In this document: positions 917 to 32,610 of the stretch, one piece after another
Layout: each line of letters opens with the position of its first letter
How positions within the stretch are numbered: position 1 is the first letter of the stretch
Assembly: GCA_965215885.1 (NCBI GenBank)
Contig: CBDCEW010000102.1
Coordinates: 1-64,000 of the forward strand
DNA length: 64,000 bases
Origin: Candidatus Moanibacter sp.
GTDB taxonomy: Bacteria; Verrucomicrobiota; Verrucomicrobiia; Opitutales; UBA2987
Direction of reading: 5' to 3'
Program-made: the position numbers and the translations under genes
Notes under the pieces: generated by a model
Databases searched by the model: none
Told to the model about the DNA's origin: nothing
What the model saw: the letters and a program-made list of their open reading frames with translations, nothing else

Positions 917-2885
917 TGACGCACGTCGAATTCGATAAGCTTGTCAAGCGGGTCGAGAAGGAGGCCGCCTCGCGCCTTTGGCTCTACGAGCTCAAACTGC
1001 GTATTCTTGCCCTTTTGGGATATGGTTACATCACTGGAATTCTGACGACCATCCTTGTGCTCCTCCTTTTGATGTGGAGCCTGTTGCTATTTGTGCCAGA
1101 GCTTAATGTCACGGCATCGAGGGTCGCATTTGGCCTTGTTTCTGCCTACGTCCTGTTCAGATTGGCGAGGATTTTCCTCATAAGGTTTCCTCCACCTGGC
1201 GGGATGGAAGTCTATCCCGAACAGTTGCCACAGCTTTTCGAAATGGTAGACCGTTTGCAAGAGGAGTTCAGATCGCCCCCAGTCCATCACATTGTCCTCA
1301 CTCCCGAATTCAATGCGGCCATGATGTATCGGCCGCGGATTGGGCCGTTTCGGAAGAGCCGAAATTATCTCATACTGGGTCTTCCCCTCTTTTTTGGGTT
1401 GTCGCAGCCGGAATTCACCGCGGTGGTCGCTCACGAACTTGGGCACCTCTCCTACGAACATGGTAAGTTTGGCGCCTACATATACAGAATCAGGGAGAGG
1501 TGGTATCGCCTGATGGAATCCTTCGGCCAGAGAAAGGGAGGAATCGGCGCATTGTTTACATGGTTCTTCTCCTGGTACGCACCCTATTTCGGTGCCTATT
1601 CTTTCGTTGAGGTCCGTCAGAGAGAGTACGAAGCTGATCGGGGAGCAGCTGATGTCACTCACCCAAACTGGGCTGCCAGTGCATTGTGCCGGGTTTCAGT
1701 CATCGGTCGCTATGTACATGAAGTCTTTTGGCCATCGATCGAAGAAGAATCATATAAGTCTCCCGAGGTCACAGTACTCCCGTTCAAGAGTATGTCGCGA
1801 AAACTCCCCGACGGCCCCGGCTATACGATCGCCCAGGGATTGACACATGAGTGCCTCCTTGAGGATGCCGGCACCACCGACACCCATCCCTCTTTGAACG
1901 AACGGCTGCGTGCTCTTGAAGTCGAGCCGTCAACCGATTACTTGCCTAGTAAAGATCCTCGGGGCAAGCCCCGAGGCATTTGATATTAGACTTTATGAAT
2001 TAGAAACGAAGCAAGCTTCGGGGAATTAAACCCGAAGCGATTAAACCGGCCGCCAACGTATTCTTAGGTCAATTGAAGTCACCGTTGGTCGAAGAATTTG
2101 ACCGGTGGTGGCAAGAATCCCTTGCCGAGACCTGGAAAAAATCCTTTGAGAGCCGCAATTCGAGGGAGGAGGCACTGAAGGAACTCGAGGAAAAGGCGCG
2201 TGGAGATAATCCGTTTACCTCCAATGCTCGCTGGAATTACGCCTCCCTCGTAGAAGAGTTTCACGGAGGGGAAGCGGCTCTTCCTCATTTCGAAGCCATT
2301 ATGGATGTCAATCCGCTCGACGCTGAAGCGGAGTTGTGCATTGGACGCATTCTTCTTGTCGAACAACCTGCTGAGGGCATCCAACGCCTTGAAAAGATTA
2401 TTGATGAACACGTTGAACTCGCCCCTGAAGCGGCCACTTTGCTTTACACTCATTTTGCGAAACTCGGAGAAAAGGAGGCAGCCGAACGCTTTCGAAAACA
2501 ATCCCTGAGCAGTCTGGACAATCACGAGGAAGCCCTGGCAGCGGAAAGCGATCCCTTCGATCCCCAACAATACATCGAACACGGATTACTTCCTGATAAA
2601 ATTTCTCAGCTCGGCTCGTTATTCAGCCGATCCGAAGCAATCAAGGCAGTTTACCTGGTGCGCAAGAAGAAACGGCAATTCGGTCGACCTTCCGTGTTCG
2701 TCGTGGGTTTAAGTTTCCACCGCTTTAAAGGCAGGGAAAGCAAAGTGGATGAGGCGGTCGGGCTTCTCCTTCTGGAATTCGAATTGCCAGGACCATTTGA
2801 AGTCGCGCCGATGATCAAAAATCTCACCAACTTGCAAAAGACTTTCCAGCAGATACCCGATTCCCTTATTTTCCAGAGCCGCTAG
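916..2885 (+). pseudogene. M48 family zinc metallopeptidase (HtpX/Ste24-like, TPR-like C-terminus) interrupted by a 92-bp element
   Basis: HELGH, EYEAD and DTHPSL motifs in ORF 916-1983; removing 92 bp at ~1950-2044 joins it in frame to ORF 2073-2885 (...DYLP-S/I-KPAANVFLGQLKSPL...). Confidence 0.85.
1948..2044 (-). mobile_element. 92-bp non-autonomous IS200/IS605-type (PATE-like) element, copy 1 (coordinates include both junction pentamers)
   Basis: Reverse complement identical to 9043-9139 and 30846-30942; two hairpins with a GCAAGC apex; no TSD. Confidence 0.85.
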
Positions 2886-9042: not shown

Positions 9043-9139
9043 TTAATCGCTTCGGGTTTAATTCCCCGAAGCTTGCTTCGTTTCTAATTCATAAAGTCTA
9101 ATATCAAATGCCTCGGGGCTTGCCCCGAGGATCTTTACT
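9043..9139 (+). mobile_element. 92-bp PATE-like element, copy 3
   Basis: Identical to copy 4; ends 1 bp before ATG 9141. Confidence 0.85.
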
Positions 9140-27146: not shown

Positions 27147-28697
27147 ATGGCGTTAGTACCGATCAGCAGCCAAATCATTGCCGACGTGGGAATCAGTATG
27201 GGCGACGAAGGGAAGGGCCGCCTGATTTACGAACTTATCGACGAGCTGTCTAGCTCGACGAGTGGAAACTCCCCTGTGTTCATGGTGATGAAAATCAACG
27301 GTGGGGCCAATTCCGGACACACCGCGGGTGGCTTGAAACTGAACCTGTTACCCGCCGCTATTATAGCAGACTCTGTCCCCTGCCTCGCCCTGGGTTGTGG
27401 CACGGTGGCTGACCCGCGCAAGCTCTGGTGGGAGATAAAACCCCTGGAGAAGGCTGGTTACTCTGTCCGCGAGCGCCTTCTCATCGACGAACGCACTCAG
27501 GTGAGCGATCTCACACACCGCCTTCTCGACCTCGGATGGGAATACTACCGGGCAAACGTTCTCCAGGAATCTGCACGCGGTACGACGGGCAGAGGAATCA
27601 CTCCGGCCTACGGAGATGAAGTCGGACAAAGCCAGATATTCTTCAACGATTTTAAAGGCGACAACGAACCCTATCGCCACAAGCTCGCTAGACGCATCGA
27701 CCGCACATTGGCAATTATACGATACGTCTGCCGGGTGAGCGAGGAGGCTTGGGATCAATTCTTTGAGACGCTGACGGTGGCCGAGCAAAGGGCAAACGCC
27801 GAGACCGTAGAGAGCGGCATTTTCAATTTGGAGGAGTTCGATTTCCGCTGCTTCAAAGGAAAGGAACCGTTCTCCCTGGACGAGAATTTGATCTTGGACA
27901 CGTATTGGAAGGCCGGATCCAAACTCGCGCCGAATATCGGTGATGCTCGTGAAGCCGCGCTCAAGGCCCTTCGCAATGGAAAAACTATCATCGGCGAATT
28001 CGGCCAGTCCTACTGGCTCGACAAACGTCACGGTTTTTCACCGAACGTGACGGCCTCCCATACCTATACGCCAGAATTTTTCCAGTCTGCAGGATTGCCC
28101 ATCCAGCCCATCCATACCATCGGTGTGTGCAAGGCCTATGACACGAAAGTTGGGACGCACGTCTTCATCACGGAAATGCCGGATGCCCACCCGCTGTCCA
28201 GGAAACTGCGACAACTGGAATACGGAACCTCTACCGGGAGGCAACGGATGGTCGGCTGGTTTGATGCAGTTGAAAAAGGGGATTCTCTCCGATACGGCGG
28301 ATTTCAGGACCTGATGATTAATAAACTCGATGCCCTGAGCTATTCAGATGACTGGCAGGGAGGTGAACTCCTGGTTTGCGCGGCATATCGCGACGCAAAC
28401 GGAACCCTTTACAAAGGTGTGCCCCGTGACGATTCCCTGAGAAAGAAGCTGCAACCGGTCTTTCTCCAGCTTCCTGGTTGGAGCGAAGACATCACCCAGG
28501 TTCGCCATTTCGCGGACCTGCCCGGAAATGCGAAACGCTTTGTTGCCACACTCGTGAAGAGTATCTTTGACATTGCCTATCGGGATGGCCATCGCCCCTC
28601 TCCGCTGCCCAACCTTCGCTATATCGGGGTAGGACCCGACCGTTCTCAGATTATAAACGACGTACCGTACACGGAGGCTCTCCTAAAACTGGCCTAG
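27147..28697 (+). CDS. purA: Adenylosuccinate synthetase (long divergent form)
   Basis: GDEGKG, GGANSGHT, GTTGRGI.PAY, EYGTSTGR.R and NKLD motifs. Confidence 0.9.
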   Translation: MALVPISSQIIADVGISMGDEGKGRLIYELIDELSSSTSGNSPVFMVMKINGGANSGHTAGGLKLNLLPAAIIADSVPCLALGCGTVADPRKLWWEIKPLEKAGYSVRERLLIDERTQVSDLTHRLLDLGWEYYRANVLQESARGTTGRGITPAYGDEVGQSQIFFNDFKGDNEPYRHKLARRIDRTLAIIRYVCRVSEEAWDQFFETLTVAEQRANAETVESGIFNLEEFDFRCFKGKEPFSLDENLILDTYWKAGSKLAPNIGDAREAALKALRNGKTIIGEFGQSYWLDKRHGFSPNVTASHTYTPEFFQSAGLPIQPIHTIGVCKAYDTKVGTHVFITEMPDAHPLSRKLRQLEYGTSTGRQRMVGWFDAVEKGDSLRYGGFQDLMINKLDALSYSDDWQGGELLVCAAYRDANGTLYKGVPRDDSLRKKLQPVFLQLPGWSEDITQVRHFADLPGNAKRFVATLVKSIFDIAYRDGHRPSPLPNLRYIGVGPDRSQIINDVPYTEALLKLA

Positions 28698-29761
28698 GCC
28701 AGTTCGTGGGGAGTGCTGAGGTGCTCGAGTATTTGTCTGGTGGAGAATTCGTGGAGTCGATCTCCTCCATTTAAGAGGCGCTGGGCCTTCAGGGCCTTCT
28801 GAAATGCGGCGTTCACTCCTTCCAGAGTCCGGTTCCTATTTTCGAGAATTAATGGCCGATGACCCGGCAAACACTTCGCTCTCTTGAGAAGATGAGCGGC
28901 CCGGTAGACACCTTGAATCACGCACCAGTGCAAACGACAGCGGTGCCAACCTTGAAATGCCTCTGGTTCCGATTCGAAGTAGTTCTCCTCCAGACTCTCC
29001 GCAGCATCCGCATGACGTCCGAGTAGAAAATAGGTTGCCCAGGCCAACTCCTGCCGTGTGGGTGCAAAGCCCACGGAATCCAAGTCGAACCACACCAACT
29101 CTCCGTTCTCTTTCCGTAGAAGATTGTTCCAATGAATATCTCCATGACAAAGGGCGGATTGTCCTATTAAAGATGGGTCACTGAGGTAGAATCTAGCGCG
29201 ATTAATGACTCCGATGTCGAAATCCTTAATAGATTCTCGATCAGGCGACCGTTCCAACGCCCTGATGGTGCGCATGAAGTCAGAAACACTTTGGATTCTC
29301 CAATGAGCGAGTGAGCCGTTCAGTCGAACTCGATCAAGAGAATGCCACCGTTTCAATTCCCGGCCCAGTTGCACCCCGAGGTCCCGATCCCAGACACCTA
29401 TTCTCGATCCCTCAACGCGGGTTTGAAATTGAAGTATGCACCAGCGCCTTCCAATTCTCCTAAAAATCGAGAAGGCCACCTGGGGACACCGGATGGGAGT
29501 GGCTCCGAGACCTTGAGAACTCAAATACACGGAAAAGGCTCTCGCCACATGGCGAATCCAGAACGCGTGAATGAAGAATTTCTCCCCGTTAAATGTGAAC
29601 GGCGTCGTCTTCGGAAACTCCTCGCGTTCCCCTCCGACTTCATAAGTTTCGTAGGCTTTGCGCAAAGCCTCATCGAATTCGGGCATCTTCCTGCGAAGAC
29701 GATGGGTCTGCAATATGCAATTCCCAATCCATTGTGCAAGTATCCTGGCTTGAATCTTCAA
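28694..29761 (-). CDS. Aminoglycoside-phosphotransferase/kinase-like protein (start uncertain)
   Basis: LCHGDIHWNNLL and WFDLDS motifs. Confidence 0.65.
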   Translation of the reverse strand: MKIQARILAQWIGNCILQTHRLRRKMPEFDEALRKAYETYEVGGEREEFPKTTPFTFNGEKFFIHAFWIRHVARAFSVYLSSQGLGATPIRCPQVAFSIFRRIGRRWCILQFQTRVEGSRIGVWDRDLGVQLGRELKRWHSLDRVRLNGSLAHWRIQSVSDFMRTIRALERSPDRESIKDFDIGVINRARFYLSDPSLIGQSALCHGDIHWNNLLRKENGELVWFDLDSVGFAPTRQELAWATYFLLGRHADAAESLEENYFESEPEAFQGWHRCRLHWCVIQGVYRAAHLLKRAKCLPGHRPLILENRNRTLEGVNAAFQKALKAQRLLNGGDRLHEFSTRQILEHLSTPHELA

Positions 29762-29867
29762 TGCTGGAGCCTTTTTGCGTAGGATGAATGCGCTTTTCTT
29801 TCCACTATAAAAACCAAGAACAGATAAAGTGAGTCAATGCGTTCCAACACTCAGTTTCATTTTCCTC

Positions 29868-29906
29868 CTATGAATCTGTCGGACCCTAAGTCTGACAGAT
29901 TCCTTG
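29868..29906. repeat. Degenerate 39-bp palindromic mini-element (GAATCTGTCGGAC...GTCTGACAGATTCC)
   Basis: Same family and length as 55264-55302. Confidence 0.55.
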
Positions 29907-29929
29907 TCGATACGTTTCCGTGCCCTCAT

Positions 29930-29963
29930 AAAATTAAAAGGCCCGGAGGAAAACCTCCAGGCC
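29930..29963 (-). terminator. Rho-independent terminator
   Basis: Minus strand GGCCUGGAGG-UUUU-CCUCCGGGCC followed by UUUUAAUUUU. Confidence 0.8.
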
Positions 29964-30790
29964 CTTTAAAGAGTTGGGACGGCGCTCGCCACACGCTCTT
30001 TCCCAGGTTGCTGTCATTTGGCGCTCTGCTTACGCAGGCTGACAGCTCCCCGACGCTATTCCTCGCGGCAACACGAAGTTTCGGTCTCATAGCAGGACCG
30101 TCGAAGTAGTTACTCACTTCGGTTTTCCAGTGAGGCCTCTCAGCGCGGTTCGGTTTTCGCCTGCCGACGTAAACTCGCCGCACCTGGTGAGGAACTCGCT
30201 GCATTGCGCCTTCCTCACACGTTTTCCCAAGGTCTGCCTCAGGAGGCTTCCTGAGCGTTGGCCTTGGGTTACGGGTCTGGCCTCTTACCTTTCAGGACAC
30301 TCTTTGAATGCAGTGCAGTCGATGTGTTTTCACACCGCCTGCCACGAGAGAAGTGTTAGCGGAGCTTTTGTTAAAGCCCGTTCACTCCCCGATACGGTCC
30401 GGCTTTTTCGCGCCTCCTGCGCCTAGCTTTTGGAGGCCTTCTGGATCGGCTGCCCTCTCCAGCCAGTTCCGTTCGGACTGGTATCCACGGTGGTATCCTT
30501 GACCATATCTAGGCCACCGTCTCCAGTGAAGAGTATCGAAACAACACTCTCCACGATCACTCAGCTCGGCACTGTTTCTATAATTTGTGGCTAACTGCCT
30601 CATCCTGCAGAACGCGATACATCAGGACACGACTCCTGAGGGCAGGACGGGTGGAATATGCCTTTGCCAAGTTCACGATTCACGAGGAATCGGTTGCTCT
30701 TTAAAAGGGGCCAGGAACACCAGTTTATTCATGACCTTTTCCCGGTTACCCGGGATTATCCTGAGGTAAGTCTATTCTTCACACGAGGTG
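29930..30790 (-). ncRNA. Candidate large structured ncRNA (~850 nt; possibly MISL motif); 5' end approximate
   Basis: No credible CDS; more than 10 successive hairpins, GUAA tetraloops and G-U pairs that work only on the minus strand; 3' terminator. Confidence 0.65.
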
Positions 30791-30845
30791 AAAAACAGAT
30801 CTTCCTTTTCTGCCAAAGAACTAATTAATAAGGTGTTGGTTTTCC

Positions 30846-30942
30846 TTAATCGCTTCGGGTTTAATTCCCCGAAGCTTGCTTCGTTTCTAATTCATAAAGT
30901 CTAATATCAAATGCCTCGGGGCTTGCCCCGAGGATCTTTACT
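30846..30942 (+). mobile_element. 92-bp PATE-like element, copy 4
   Basis: Identical to copy 3. Confidence 0.85.
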
Positions 30943-31194
30943 ATGTCAAATAAAAAGTGACATAAATTATTAATAACGAACAAGTTGTGAATAACGTGAG
31001 AATAAATCAGAGGGGTTCCGTGAATAAGTTCATAAACTTTCGTCAAAACAAGCAATTACGGAGCTGGCTGAGGTGAACAACCTACAGGAGACTGCTACCA
31101 CGCATTGTGAATAAAGATTCGCTGAGAAAGTTTTTTGATTCTTTTTTCGTTTTTTTTCGAAAAAGCCTCTCTTTTTCAGCAGCATGAAGAAACC

Positions 31195-32478
31195 CTACTG
31201 GAGGGTGTGTTCGTGAACAGGGATATCATGAAAGACGGCATCCATAATCTCACCGATGAGATAAATGGATCCAGTAGCGACGAGGATGTCATTGTCTTCG
31301 CCCATGGCACAATGACCAGGGAAAGGAAAGACCTCCTTTACGGTACTCTGGACGATATTGCCCTGGTAGGAAGTTGGGATAGCGGATCGGAGCTCCTGGA
31401 AAGAAGCAGCGCGGGGTTGTGCGGGTATGAGCAGGACAATCTGACGAGCGTAACGAGCGACTACGGGCATGAGAACGCCGGCCCGAAAGCTCCCAAGGGT
31501 ACCGACAATCACGACGGGCTTACGTCCGCACTCAATGATCAGGTCTTCCAGATTTTCGCATAGCATATCGGCCCCCTCCAAGTTGTGGGAAGTGTCAAAG
31601 TAGATCTTCTTTCCGCCGACGAAATGAGCATCCCAGCGCGCTGGCCAGTGAACCGATTGGAGGGCCGAATCCGCCGTCTTTTTGGTGACGGGAAACTCCT
31701 CGCTTAAGCGCTCGGCAACCATGGTGGCGACGGCCGCATTCCAACGCTGGTAGCGCCCCTTAAGGTTGGTCGATGGATAGCCATCGAGATCAGAACCGAA
31801 TCGCTCTTTGATCGAGAATAACTCCACTCCACGTTGGCTTGCGACATCCCGAATGACGTCTTCCGCATCACCTGGCAAATGTCCTAATACGAGGGGCCTT
31901 CCCTCTTTAATGATACCGGCCTTCTCAAGGGCAATCTGCTCCAAGGAATGGCCCAGGATATCGCAGTGATCGTAACTGATGGAAGTAATGATTGTTATCT
32001 CGGGACGGACGATATTGGTTGCGTCGAGGCGACCACCTAGACCCGTTTCAATAATACCGATATCAACTTCCTCCTGGCAGAAGCGCATGAACGCCATGGC
32101 GGTAACAAATTCGAAAAAGGAGGGGTGATCATCCGAATCAACAGCGGCCAGATTTTCCGCGACTTCCCGAAGGCGGCGGGAATGGGAAATGATCGAATCT
32201 CGATCTAAAGGATGCCTGTTCACCTGAATACGTTCACCGAGAAAGACCAGGTGTGGAGAAGTGAAGAGGCCGGTCTTATACCCTCCACTTCGGAAAATAG
32301 CCTCCAGCATGGCACAGGTCGAGCCCTTCCCGTTCGTTCCAGCGACATGAATAACCGGATAAGCTCTTTCGGGATGGCCGAGCGCCTCGGCCAATAATTC
32401 CATACGTTCGATACCGTACTTGGCACCATGGTGCCTGAGCCCATAGAGGTAGGCTTTAACATCTTCGTAGCTATTCAT
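31195..32478 (-). CDS. folC: Folylpolyglutamate synthase/dihydrofolate synthase
   Basis: HVAGTNGKGS, FTSPHL and ETGLGGRLDATN motifs. Confidence 0.95.
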   Translation of the reverse strand: MNSYEDVKAYLYGLRHHGAKYGIERMELLAEALGHPERAYPVIHVAGTNGKGSTCAMLEAIFRSGGYKTGLFTSPHLVFLGERIQVNRHPLDRDSIISHSRRLREVAENLAAVDSDDHPSFFEFVTAMAFMRFCQEEVDIGIIETGLGGRLDATNIVRPEITIITSISYDHCDILGHSLEQIALEKAGIIKEGRPLVLGHLPGDAEDVIRDVASQRGVELFSIKERFGSDLDGYPSTNLKGRYQRWNAAVATMVAERLSEEFPVTKKTADSALQSVHWPARWDAHFVGGKKIYFDTSHNLEGADMLCENLEDLIIECGRKPVVIVGTLGSFRAGVLMPVVARYARQIVLLIPAQPRAASFQELRSAIPTSYQGNIVQSTVKEVFPFPGHCAMGEDNDILVATGSIYLIGEIMDAVFHDIPVHEHTLQ

Positions 32479-32610
32479 CATCTTTATGCAGAATGTCGTT
32501 ACGGCGGGGTGCGGGAATATGGTCAGAGGAGGGACGATGGCTGTGCCAGGGGCCTATCGGACGAGGTTTGGCCCTTGCACAGCAATCCGACGACAAAGTC
32601 CGGCAGCCTG

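What the first reader, a model, noticed from the sequence alone, without database searches (positions are those of the whole stretch)
29930..30790. ORF-free ~850-nt highly structured minus-strand RNA candidate (MISL-like or a new large ncRNA)
Seen: about 1.4 kb between the phosphotransferase gene and folC has no credible CDS. Its minus strand is a string of local hairpins: CCCGG-GUAA-CCGGG (30741-30754); CGAUUC/GAAUCG (30676-30692); nested UCCUGC/UCAGGA stems (30603-30647); ACGGUGG/CCACCGU (30487-30520); GCCUCC/GGAGGC (30412-30437); GCAGGCGGUGUG-AAAA-CACAUCGACUGC (30315-30342); CCCAAGG..CUCAGGA/UCCUGAG..CCUUGGG (30226-30268); GUGAGGAA/UUCCUCAC (30187-30218); GCUGUCA..CUGC-GUAA-GCAG..UGACAGC (30010-30046). 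It ends in a U-tailed terminator. The GNRA loops and G-U wobbles only work on the minus strand. Knowledge: the MISL (Mostly Independently Structured, Large) motif is a roughly 800-nt RNA of unknown function reported from Verrucomicrobia. Inference: this is MISL or an undescribed large ncRNA.
Basis: partly seen in the sequence, partly recalled or inferred. Interest (0 to 1): 0.8.

Follow-up and report, generated by a model that had tools for sequence, protein, structure and literature searches.

The report
Known MISL RNA gene, knotted fold

Summary
Window 29981-30761 (minus strand) matches Rfam RF03079 (MISL RNA) over the whole model: 442.1 bits against a cut-off of 274.6, E about 1e-132.

The fold is real. 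On a structure-blind alignment of 85 sequences, 82.3% of cells pair against 37-41% for slid controls. No reading frame is conserved. Neighbouring genes differ between clades. Contigs from RNA libraries of 4 studies cover the gene.

This scan has met MISL on other DNA many times before (11 notes). Those notes already recorded its rRNA-type boxA leader and the DnaA boxes before its promoter. I re-tested both here and they hold.

Two points appear in none of those notes:
- Five pseudoknot helices (two of them re-tested on 32 sequences kept out of the discovery alignment) and a probable kissing loop tie the "independent" hairpins into a compact fold.
- In this genome a 95-nt repeat with at least 40 copies sits between the -35 and -10 elements of the MISL promoter.

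I could not check whether the pseudoknots are already published. Function remains unknown.

The parts
29981..30761 (-). MISL RNA core (Rfam RF03079, model positions 1-751)
   Evidence: cmscan 442.1 bits, E 1.1e-132, not truncated. It is the only copy in the 6.36-Mb assembly. Covariation on alignment A1 supports the fold.
30808..30821 (-). boxA-like word GTTCTTTGGCAGAA, at or next to the predicted transcript start
   Evidence: The word GTTCNTTGNNAGAA (<=2 substitutions) is found in 79 of 79 distinct loci, most often 45 nt before the model start. This genome's own 16S leader has GTTCTTTGAAATTT and its 16S-23S spacer has GTTCTTTGACAGTT. The gamma-proteobacterial boxA consensus is GYTCTTTAANA (PMC5725501, passages read).
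30762..30807 (-). Leader hairpin P0 between boxA and the Rfam model start; sequence varies, structure is kept
   Evidence: The window segment folds at -18.0 kcal/mol, z = -5.4. Across 79 distinct loci the median z is -3.2, and 68 of 79 are below -2. RNA-library contigs reach 30805 (X6) and 30809 (X4), so P0 is present in RNA libraries.
29930..29969 (-). Intrinsic terminator (16-bp stem 29969-29934, then a T run)
   Evidence: Found by the terminator scan. A hairpin followed by a T run lies within 100 nt after the model end in 93 of 135 distinct loci, with the T run starting at a median of +47.
30719..30723 (-). PK1 5' strand (loop CUGGU, MISL nt 39-43); pairs with 30478-30482 (ACCAG, nt 280-284)
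   Evidence: A1 columns 52-56 with 559-563: 97.9% of cells paired; 4 of 5 pairs change on both sides.
30628..30631 (-). PK2 5' strand (hairpin loop CGUG, nt 131-134); pairs with 30613-30616 (CGCG, nt 146-149)
   Evidence: A1 columns 206-209 with 229-232: 97.9% paired. Pair types include CG 57 / UA 22 and GC 52 / AU 23.
30573..30578 (-). Probable kissing loop: GAAACA (nt 184-189) pairs with UGUUUC (nt 219-224, window 30538-30543)
   Evidence: Five aligned pairs are paired in 77-80 of 83-84 sequences. Lineages with other loop sequences compensate: GCAAAA/UUUUGC, GCGAAU/GUUCGC, CGGAUG/UAUCCG, GAGACC/GGUCUC, CAAAACC/GGUUUUG. The shuffled-partner control did not discriminate (5.46 vs 5.11).
30493..30498 (-). 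PK3 5' strand (GGAUAC, nt 264-269); pairs with 30295-30300 (GUGUCC, nt 462-467); links the middle domain to the 3' domain
   Evidence: A1 columns 537-542 with 942-947: 94.1% paired; 6 of 6 pairs change on both sides. The family consensus is GGUUGC/GCAACC.
30308..30313 (-). PK4 5' strand (CUGCAU, nt 449-454); pairs with 30199-30204 (AUGCAG, nt 558-563, a hairpin loop)
   Evidence: A1: 97.6% paired; 5 of 6 pairs change on both sides. Hold-out set of 32 sequences not in A1: 189 of 191 cells paired, against 20-39% when slid.
30090..30094 (-). PK5 5' strand (UGCUA in the 9-nt loop, nt 668-672); pairs with 30054-30058 (UAGCG, nt 704-708)
   Evidence: A1: 100% paired; one pair shows UA 31 / UG 28 / CG 26. 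Hold-out: 160 of 160 cells paired, against 13-40% when slid. This is the weakest of the five in covariation.
30944..30949 (-). TTGACA, the -35 hexamer of the ancestral MISL promoter, now cut off from its -10
   Evidence: Relatives show TTGACA, a 17-nt spacer, a -10 hexamer and 6-9 nt before boxA. 78 of 83 loci have a -10 with A2 and T6, and 56 of 83 have a -35 matching at least 4 of 6. The window's upstream sequence matches relatives L007 and L003 up to this hexamer.
30846..30940 (-). 95-nt dispersed repeat inserted in the promoter spacer
   Evidence: 40 matches were scored in the assembly, 37 of them identical over all 95 nt. 8 copies examined have unrelated flanks. Without the repeat, 27 nt would separate the -35 from boxA, against about 30 in relatives (inference).
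30827..30832 (-). -10-like TTATTA (or CTTATT one base upstream)
   Evidence: By position only. The window scored lowest-class in the promoter scan (5 of 12) because the -35 position now falls inside the repeat. This genome's 16S promoter uses CTTATT. Inferred.
30986..31114 (-). Array of DnaA-box-like words: TTATTCACA at 30986-30994 and 31106-31114 (exact), TTATTCTCA at 30997-31005, TTATTCACG at 31019-31027
   Evidence: These are the only 2 exact TTATNCACA matches in the 64-kb window. They are also the only pair within 300 nt among 95 exact matches in the assembly. This region ranks first among clusters of <=1-mismatch boxes in the assembly: 5 in 350 nt, one of which lies in P0.

Best explanation
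This is the single MISL RNA gene of an Opitutales-type verrucomicrobial genome, and it is a stand-alone transcription unit of about 890 nt on the minus strand.

Layout from 5' to 3': (1) an array of DnaA-box-like words; (2) a sigma-70-type promoter, here split by a 95-nt repeat; (3) a boxA word at the very start of the transcript; (4) a variable leader hairpin P0; (5) the 781-nt conserved core; (6) a short spacer; (7) an intrinsic terminator.

Shown here: family membership, the nested fold, five extra pseudoknot helices plus a probable kissing loop, presence in RNA libraries, no conserved ORF, and no conserved neighbour across clades.

Inferred:
- boxA loads NusB/NusE so that RNA polymerase is not stopped by Rho on this long untranslated transcript, as on rRNA (about 0.7).
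- DnaA binds the upstream boxes and ties MISL synthesis to replication or growth state (about 0.6).
- The product acts in trans as an abundant, compactly folded RNA. My preferred mechanism is a scaffold for one or more proteins, as for OLE RNA (about 0.4). A ribozyme (about 0.15) or a self-assembling RNA-only particle (about 0.15) are alternatives.

The biochemical function is not known to me from any source.
For: Membership: 442.1 bits against a cut-off of 274.6, model 1-751; one copy in the assembly.

Fold: 174 projected pairs on the structure-blind alignment A1 (85 sequences). 82.3% of cells are paired, against 37.0-40.8% when slid. 147 of 174 pairs change on both sides. Covariation score 0.414 against 0.072-0.105. 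0 of 500 shuffles reach the observed values.

Tertiary helices: 26 pairs, 97.4% paired against 23.6-44.2% when slid, and 19 of 26 change on both sides. PK4 and PK5 were confirmed on 32 unused sequences.

Strand: Rfam match, terminator and z-scores (-5.34 vs -2.83) all point to the minus strand.

RNA: contigs from RNA libraries of 4 of 4 studies laid lie on MISL, for example X3 30020-30714 (695 nt, 13 differences), X2 30236-30754, X4 29996-30295 and 30441-30809, X6 30587-30805.

Distribution: 16 of 41 genomes of the order; 9 of 151 sampled across the phylum; all 116 loci from a motif scan of 185,579 species' genomes are MISL by nhmmer, and their titles are mostly Verrucomicrobiota.

boxA: 79 of 79 loci. 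The same core word occurs in the rRNA leader or spacer of 5 of 5 genomes checked. The promoter sits at a fixed distance upstream.

DnaA boxes: with <=1 mismatch they occur in 81 of 82 loci, against 6 of 82 control segments; exact boxes occur in 42 of 82 against 0 of 82. They peak at fixed positions, 54 boxes in each of the -100 and -75 bins. The same word lies before dnaA in this genome (C104:133975 and 134276).
Against: - No experiment on function exists that I could find. 3 library records hold 'MISL RNA', 'MISL motif', 'MISL RNAs' or 'RF03079', and they collapse to one listed work, Ribonanza, which used a MISL window only as a mapping substrate.
- MISL was not found in 25 of 41 genomes of the same order, including every genome of 2.0 Mb or less and 0 of 15 of one family. 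It is therefore not essential.
- The pseudoknots were found by a mutual-information screen on the same alignment on which they were then counted, so those controls are optimistic. PK1-3 have no hold-out test. PK5 has only one pair with changes on both sides.
- The kissing-loop control with shuffled partners did not discriminate (mean 5.46 vs 5.11).
- Contigs cannot show strand, ends or level of an RNA.
- In this genome the -35 is separated from the -10 by the repeat, so expression of this very copy from its normal promoter is doubtful.
- Binding of Nus factors and of DnaA is inferred from words in the DNA only.
Confidence: 0.8

Rival explanations
1. The RNA is catalytic: a large ribozyme whose pseudoknotted core forms an active site.
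For: At least five pseudoknots and a kissing loop give a compact fold. Long stretches that are unpaired in the nested model are invariant across the phylum, for example GCGUCGGG, CCUCAC and ACCCGU (invariant columns). Weinberg et al. note that large bacterial RNAs often catalyse reactions (PMC5737381, passage in the 'Large IGRs' section).
Against: No substrate or reaction is suggested by any neighbour. The family is missing from many relatives. No similarity to any ribozyme family in Rfam at E <= 1.
Confidence: 0.15
2. MISL assembles with itself into an RNA-only multimer, as reported for OLE, ROOL and GOLLD.
For: Large ornate bacterial RNAs were found to form RNA-only complexes (bioRxiv 10.1101/2024.12.08.627333; abstract seen in the search listing). 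MISL has several conserved loops that could pair between molecules.
Against: Every loop pairing I found has a partner within the same molecule. The PK2 loop covaries with its downstream strand (CG 57 / UA 22), which a self-complementary loop-loop dimer would not need. MISL is chromosomal and single-copy, not phage-borne.
Confidence: 0.15
3. The region is a replication origin or a DnaA-titrating locus, and the RNA is secondary to that.
For: It is the densest cluster of DnaA-box-like words in the assembly. A/T-rich tracts lie next to it. Boxes are kept in 81 of 82 loci.
Against: There is no GC-skew switch in the window: the cumulative skew rises on both sides of 30 kb. In the complete relative G097 the skew stays negative (-0.01 to -0.27) over all 400 kb around MISL and dnaA. 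The boxes sit at fixed distances from the promoter. The RNA itself is under structural selection. A titration role in addition to promoter control is not excluded.
Confidence: 0.05
4. It is a cis-acting leader (riboswitch-like) of the APH-family gene 220 nt downstream, or it codes for small proteins.
For: MISL is co-directional with the APH-family gene. Minus-strand ORFs of 92 and 73 aa lie inside it.
Against: A strong terminator lies between MISL and the gene. The downstream gene differs by clade: a PALP enzyme and rho, BipA, adenylosuccinate synthetase on the other strand, and others. The two ORF regions are stop-free in only 24 and 29 of 84 homologues. The 92-aa ORF and the two plus-strand ORFs tested gave 0 Pfam families; the 73-aa ORF was not scanned.
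Confidence: 0.02

Closest known systems
MISL RNA (Rfam RF03079, typed 'Gene; sRNA')
   Same: Full-length match above the family's cut-off, the same helices, the same phylum, and a stand-alone gene with a terminator.
   Different: At most 66% identical to any of the 84 homologues aligned. Three features lie outside the Rfam model or its nested structure: the boxA word plus P0 leader; five pseudoknots and a kissing loop; DnaA boxes before the promoter. Whether the original description drew the pseudoknots I could not check.
rRNA operon leader / lambda nut-type boxA sites (NusB-NusE loading, processive antitermination)
   Same: The word GTTCTTTGNNA occurs at the transcript start, as in this genome's own 16S leader and 16S-23S spacer. 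It lies close to the consensus GYTCTTTAANA (PMC5725501). It is followed by a hairpin, in the order boxA then hairpin as at lambda nut (the order is recalled, not checked).
   Different: The transcript is not rRNA. Nus binding is untested. Bases after the core word differ (AGAA in MISL against TTT or GTT in rRNA).
OLE RNA (about 610 nt, Firmicutes), GOLLD and ROOL
   Same: Large, intricately folded bacterial RNAs of unknown biochemical function that are abundant in cells. OLE works with partner proteins (recalled). RNA-only assemblies are reported in 10.1101/2024.12.08.627333 (abstract seen).
   Different: No sequence or model match. No conserved partner gene lies next to MISL. MISL is chromosomal and not phage-associated.
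DnaA-controlled promoters such as that of dnaA itself
   Same: Several TTATNCACA words lie upstream of a sigma-70-type promoter. The same word lies before dnaA in this genome and in G097. The consensus TTATNCACA is recalled knowledge.
   Different: The target is a non-coding RNA gene, and the array is kept across a whole phylum (81 of 82 loci).

Membership tests
MISL RNA (RF03079) | Score at or above Rfam's gathering threshold over the full model | tested here: met
   442.1 bits against 274.6; model 1-751 of 751; not truncated.
MISL RNA (RF03079) | Consensus helices kept, with compensatory changes among homologues | tested here: met
   158 of 174 projected pairs are canonical in the window. 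82.3% of cells are paired on A1 and 147 of 174 pairs change on both sides.
MISL RNA (RF03079) | Occurs in Verrucomicrobiota | tested here: met
   Relatives of the same order carry it (16 of 41). Named loci are Opitutales, Opitutaceae, Lacunisphaera, Nibricoccus, Limisphaerales, Pedosphaera and Verrucomicrobiales. L021 (a genome of the window's order) has the same sequence as L043, titled 'Opitutae'.
MISL RNA (RF03079) | Non-coding, separately transcribed gene | tested here: met
   Terminator; promoter in relatives; no conserved ORF; RNA-library contigs. Transcript ends are not mapped.
   cmscan of 29700-31250 at E <= 1 lists only MISL and one chance hit (ncS037, 21.3 bits against a cut-off of 112).
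boxA-dependent (Nus factor) antitermination units | boxA word matching the organism's own rRNA boxA, placed in the transcript | tested here: met
   Window GTTCTTTGGCA against its own rRNA GTTCTTTGAAA and GTTCTTTGACA. Found in 79 of 79 loci. In relatives it lies 6-9 nt after the -10 hexamer.
boxA-dependent (Nus factor) antitermination units | NusB/NusE binding and resistance to Rho | not testable with these tools
   Needs binding assays or genetics.
DnaA regulon / DnaA-box clusters | Clustered TTATNCACA words | tested here: met
DnaA regulon / DnaA-box clusters | DnaA occupancy and an effect on transcription | not testable with these tools
   Needs ChIP and DnaA depletion.
Chromosomal origin (oriC) | GC-skew switch at the DnaA-box cluster | tested here: not met
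   No switch in the window nor across 400 kb of G097.

The most novel reading that the evidence does not exclude
MISL may not be a string of independent hairpins. It may be a globular, multiply knotted RNA, with five pseudoknots and a kissing loop joining its 5', middle and 3' parts. Its synthesis would be hard-wired to DnaA and to the rRNA antitermination machinery. On this reading it is a growth- or replication-coupled ribonucleoprotein core or ribozyme specific to Verrucomicrobiota, and the tertiary contacts are new to the literature.
Probability: 0.35. Interest if true: 0.6.

Novelty: new member of a known kind. Interest (0 to 1): 0.35.

Why it matters
On its own this is one more copy of a catalogued RNA, so it is ordinary. 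MISL is nevertheless one of the few large, phylum-wide bacterial RNAs with no known function. Together these give structural and genetic work on MISL definite things to mutate and test. The promoter split by a repeat offers a natural case for asking whether the RNA is still made when its -35 is moved 95 nt away.

Tried and rejected
- The supplement of Weinberg et al. 2017, where MISL is presumably described, could not be read. The main text has 0 mentions. I therefore cannot say whether the pseudoknots, boxA or DnaA boxes are in print.
- Stringer et al. 2020 (boxA before CRISPR arrays) is not held. I saw only its title in a reference list.
- mafft-qinsi is not installed, so I used ordinary MAFFT.
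- I first read the upstream word as a MISL-specific operator or alternative-sigma promoter. It is palindromic (GTTC-N7-GAAC) and occurs once per genome in G000, G097 and G032. I dropped that reading when the same core turned up in the rRNA leaders and a sigma-70-type promoter appeared upstream of it.
- Apparent 5'-truncated forms (nhmmer hits starting at HMM 194-198 in L035, L071, L098) are not truncated. The boxA word lies 344-406 nt upstream, so their 5' domain has only diverged. L072's contig starts too close to tell.
- Origin-of-replication reading: rejected on GC skew.
- In my mutual-information screen the seed pair for PK5 (nt 668 with 703) was in the wrong register. The helix is nt 668-672 with 704-708.
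- Reads: in X2, X4 and X6 no contig lay on the flanking genes, and X3 has low-depth contigs there. Contig ends at 30805 and 30809 may only reflect graph branching at the conserved boxA. An adapter-like loose end at 29996 in X4 is not evidence of an RNA end.
- The kissing-loop partner-shuffle control was uninformative, because most lineages share the same loop words.
Full report
WHAT IS THERE

The gap between an APH-family phosphotransferase gene (28694-29761, minus) and a folC-like Mur-ligase gene (31195-32481, minus) is 1433 nt. It holds no ORF longer than 98 aa.

A scan of the whole 64-kb window against Rfam 15 gives one family above threshold. MISL RNA (RF03079) matches 29981-30761 on the minus strand, at 442.1 bits (cut-off 274.6), E 1.1e-132, model positions 1-751 of 751. 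At E <= 1 nothing else of note matches 29700-31250, so GOLLD, ROOL, OLE and HEARO are excluded as families. The assembly (6.36 Mb, 105 contigs, 90.3% complete) has this one copy.

CHECK OF THE OBSERVATION

I projected Rfam's consensus structure onto the window sequence. That gives 174 pairs, 158 of them canonical.
Only the inner 4 bp of the sixth are in the Rfam structure; its longer stem appears in the MFE fold.
- The terminator is a 16-bp stem at 29969-29934 followed by TTTT.
- The minus strand folds at -317.6 kcal/mol, z = -5.34 against 20 dinucleotide shuffles. The plus strand gives z = -2.83.

RELATIVES AND COVARIATION

- MISL was found in 16 of 41 genomes of the same order (11 above the cut-off). 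It was found in none of the genomes of 2.0 Mb or less.
- In a sample across the phylum it was found in 9 of 151 genomes, all but one from the window's order.
All 116 match a MISL HMM that I built.
- Their titles name Opitutales, Opitutaceae, Lacunisphaera, Nibricoccus, Limisphaerales, Pedosphaera and Verrucomicrobiales. A few carry oddly labelled MAG titles.
- I aligned the window sequence with 84 distinct full-length homologues using plain MAFFT, which knows nothing of structure (alignment A1). The window is at most 66% identical to any of them.
- On A1 the projected structure pairs 82.3% of 13,892 cells, against 37.0-40.8% when the 3' partners are slid by 1-3 columns. 147 of 174 pairs show changes on both sides. 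The covariation score is 0.414 against 0.072-0.105. 0 of 500 shuffles reach the observed values.
- The two longest minus-strand ORF regions of the window are stop-free in only 29 and 24 of 84 homologues.

TERTIARY CONTACTS

A mutual-information screen on A1, followed by walking the diagonals, gave five helices that are not in the nested structure of the Rfam model.
- PK1: loop of the third hairpin, nt 39-43, with nt 280-284.
- PK2: hairpin loop nt 131-134 with nt 146-149.
- PK3: nt 264-269 with nt 462-467 (family consensus GGUUGC/GCAACC; window GGAUAC/GUGUCC).
- PK4: nt 449-454 with hairpin loop nt 558-563.
- PK5: 9-nt loop nt 668-672 with nt 704-708.

Counted together (26 pairs), 97.4% of cells are paired, against 23.6-44.2% when slid, and 19 of 26 pairs change on both sides. 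These helices were chosen on the same alignment, so that control is optimistic. I therefore tested PK4 and PK5 on 32 distinct 3'-half sequences that were not in A1. PK4 paired in 189 of 191 cells and PK5 in 160 of 160, against 13-40% when slid. PK1-3 lack such a hold-out test.

A sixth contact is a kissing loop between nt 184-189 and nt 219-224 (GAAAC(C) with (G)GUUUC).
- It is paired in 77-80 of 83-84 sequences at five positions.
- It is compensated in lineages with other loop words.
- My shuffled-partner control did not discriminate, so I call it probable.

All six pairings form in the window sequence (my reading of the sequence printed). Whether the original description does, I could not check.

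THE TRANSCRIPTION UNIT

Upstream of the Rfam model start every distinct locus (79 of 79) has the word GTTCNTTGNNAGAA, most often 45 nt away. The segment between them folds into a hairpin of variable sequence (P0): median z is -3.2, and 68 of 79 are below -2.

I first took the word for a MISL-specific operator.
- The 16S leader of this genome has GTTCTTTGAAATTT 112 nt before the 16S start, and its spacer has GTTCTTTGACAGTT.
- The same core occurs in the leader or spacer of all 5 genomes checked.
- It is close to the gamma-proteobacterial boxA consensus GYTCTTTAANA (PMC5725501, passages read).

Upstream of the word, relatives show a sigma-70-type promoter at fixed distance: typically TTGACA, 17 nt, a -10 hexamer, then 6-9 nt. 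78 of 83 loci have a -10 with A2 and T6, and 56 of 83 have a -35 matching at least 4 of 6. boxA is therefore the first thing transcribed.

A terminator-like hairpin with a T run follows the model end in 93 of 135 distinct loci.

The inferred mechanism rests on established knowledge of rRNA antitermination (abstracts of PMC4807359 and PMC6614801 in the listing). NusB/NusE would bind boxA and make RNA polymerase resistant to Rho on a long RNA that no ribosome protects.

DnaA BOXES

Prompted by note e1-7822301, I counted TTATNCACA words (consensus recalled).
- In the 300 nt before the promoter, 42 of 82 distinct loci hold at least one exact box, and 81 of 82 hold at least one with <=1 mismatch.
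- In control segments 1 kb further upstream the figures are 0 of 82 and 6 of 82.
- The boxes sit at fixed positions, with peaks of 54 in each of the -100 and -75 bins.
- In the window the only two exact matches in 64 kb are 30986-30994 and 31106-31114, with two 8-of-9 boxes between them.
- In the whole assembly this is the only place with two exact boxes within 300 nt (95 exact matches in all). It is also the top cluster at <=1 mismatch.
- The same word lies just before dnaA.
- It is not the origin. There is no skew switch in the window, and the skew is uniformly negative across 400 kb around MISL and dnaA in the complete relative G097.
- Earlier notes (e1-2355832, e1-4911258, e1-4765052, e1-5251014) reported the same boxes on other genomes. 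My counts agree with them.

A PECULIARITY OF THIS GENOME

The stretch 30846-30940 is a 95-nt repeat.
- 40 matches were scored in the assembly, 37 of them identical over all 95 nt. 102 candidates were seen and only 40 scored.
- 8 copies examined have unrelated flanks.
- Two more copies lie in the window, at 1950-2044 and 9043-9137.

The window's upstream sequence matches relatives (TTATTCACAACTTGTTC ... CACTTTTTATTTGACA) up to the -35 hexamer at 30949-30944. Three bases later the repeat begins, and 24 nt after its end comes boxA. Without the repeat the -35 to boxA distance would be 27 nt, against about 30 in relatives. I infer that the repeat inserted into the promoter spacer. The MISL core is intact, so the insertion is either recent or tolerated.

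EXPRESSION

Eleven RNA-labelled runs hold part of the stretch. I laid four, from four studies, on 28700-32500. All four have contigs on MISL:
- X3: 30020-30714, 13 differences.
- X2: 30236-30754.
- X4: 29996-30295 and 30441-30809.
- X6: 30058-30253 with 0 differences, and 30587-30805.

Contigs show presence in RNA libraries. They do not show strand, ends or level.

CONTEXT

Neighbours are housekeeping genes that differ by clade.
- Window's clade: folC-like upstream and adenylosuccinate synthetase downstream.
- Limisphaerales-type loci: a PALP enzyme, then rho, downstream.
- Opitutaceae: an HrpB-type helicase upstream.

No transposase and no conserved partner gene is present. This fits a trans-acting RNA. 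It argues against a cis-regulator or a mobile-element RNA.

VERDICT

It is a new member of a known family whose function is still unknown. The scan has reported MISL many times on other DNA, including its boxA leader and DnaA boxes. My preferred mechanism is a DnaA-controlled, Nus-protected, compactly folded RNA that scaffolds protein. That is inference beyond the fold and the sequence signals.

Noticed in passing
window 30846-30940 (-), 9043-9137 (-), 1950-2044 (+): A 95-nt dispersed repeat (TAAAGATCC...GCGATTAA, with two GC-rich hairpins). 40 matches were scored in the assembly, 37 identical over all 95 nt, and flanks are unrelated. 102 candidates were seen and only 40 scored. Contigs of two RNA-library runs carry it at 100% identity in other contexts.
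   Followed up: partly
L014 and L019 (G006:C2, about 1,735,000 and 1,594,000): One relative of the window's family has two identical copies, about 670 nt long, of a MISL that lacks roughly the first 240 nt and has no boxA word within 900 nt upstream. One copy sits in the folC/purA position.
   Followed up: partly
L146, L150, L151 (G005): Three near-identical stretches in relative G005 carry GTTCATTGGCAGAA away from MISL. They look like copies of one repeated element, not extra boxA sites.
   Followed up: no
G005, many contigs: 74 weak matches (about 36 bits) to the Bac_DnaA domain in ORFs of about 270 aa. This looks like a high-copy insertion-sequence helper ATPase and not extra dnaA genes (my guess, not tested).
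   Followed up: no
Loci L026, L035, L048, L069, L072, L074, L076, L098 and others: In the Limisphaerales-type clade a PALP (cysteine-synthase-like) gene lies directly downstream of MISL and co-directional with it in 16 loci. The rho gene follows 1.2-1.5 kb from MISL in most of these. Probably synteny only.
   Followed up: no
G000:C102:127389-128970 (-), outside the window on the same contig: The genome's 16S rRNA gene. Its leader shows TTGACG, 17 nt, CTTATT, 8 nt and then boxA.
   Followed up: partly
L039, L041, L065, L100, L102, L103 (titles): MAG records titled Bifidobacteriaceae, Bifidobacterium, Saccharimonadales or Akkermansia muciniphila carry full MISL genes of the Limisphaerales type. 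The labels are probably wrong or the bins mixed.
   Followed up: no
window 29996 (run X4): A contig from an RNA library ends here in 16 letters that look to me like sequencing adapter (recognised from memory). This is an assembly artefact, not evidence of an RNA end.
   Followed up: no
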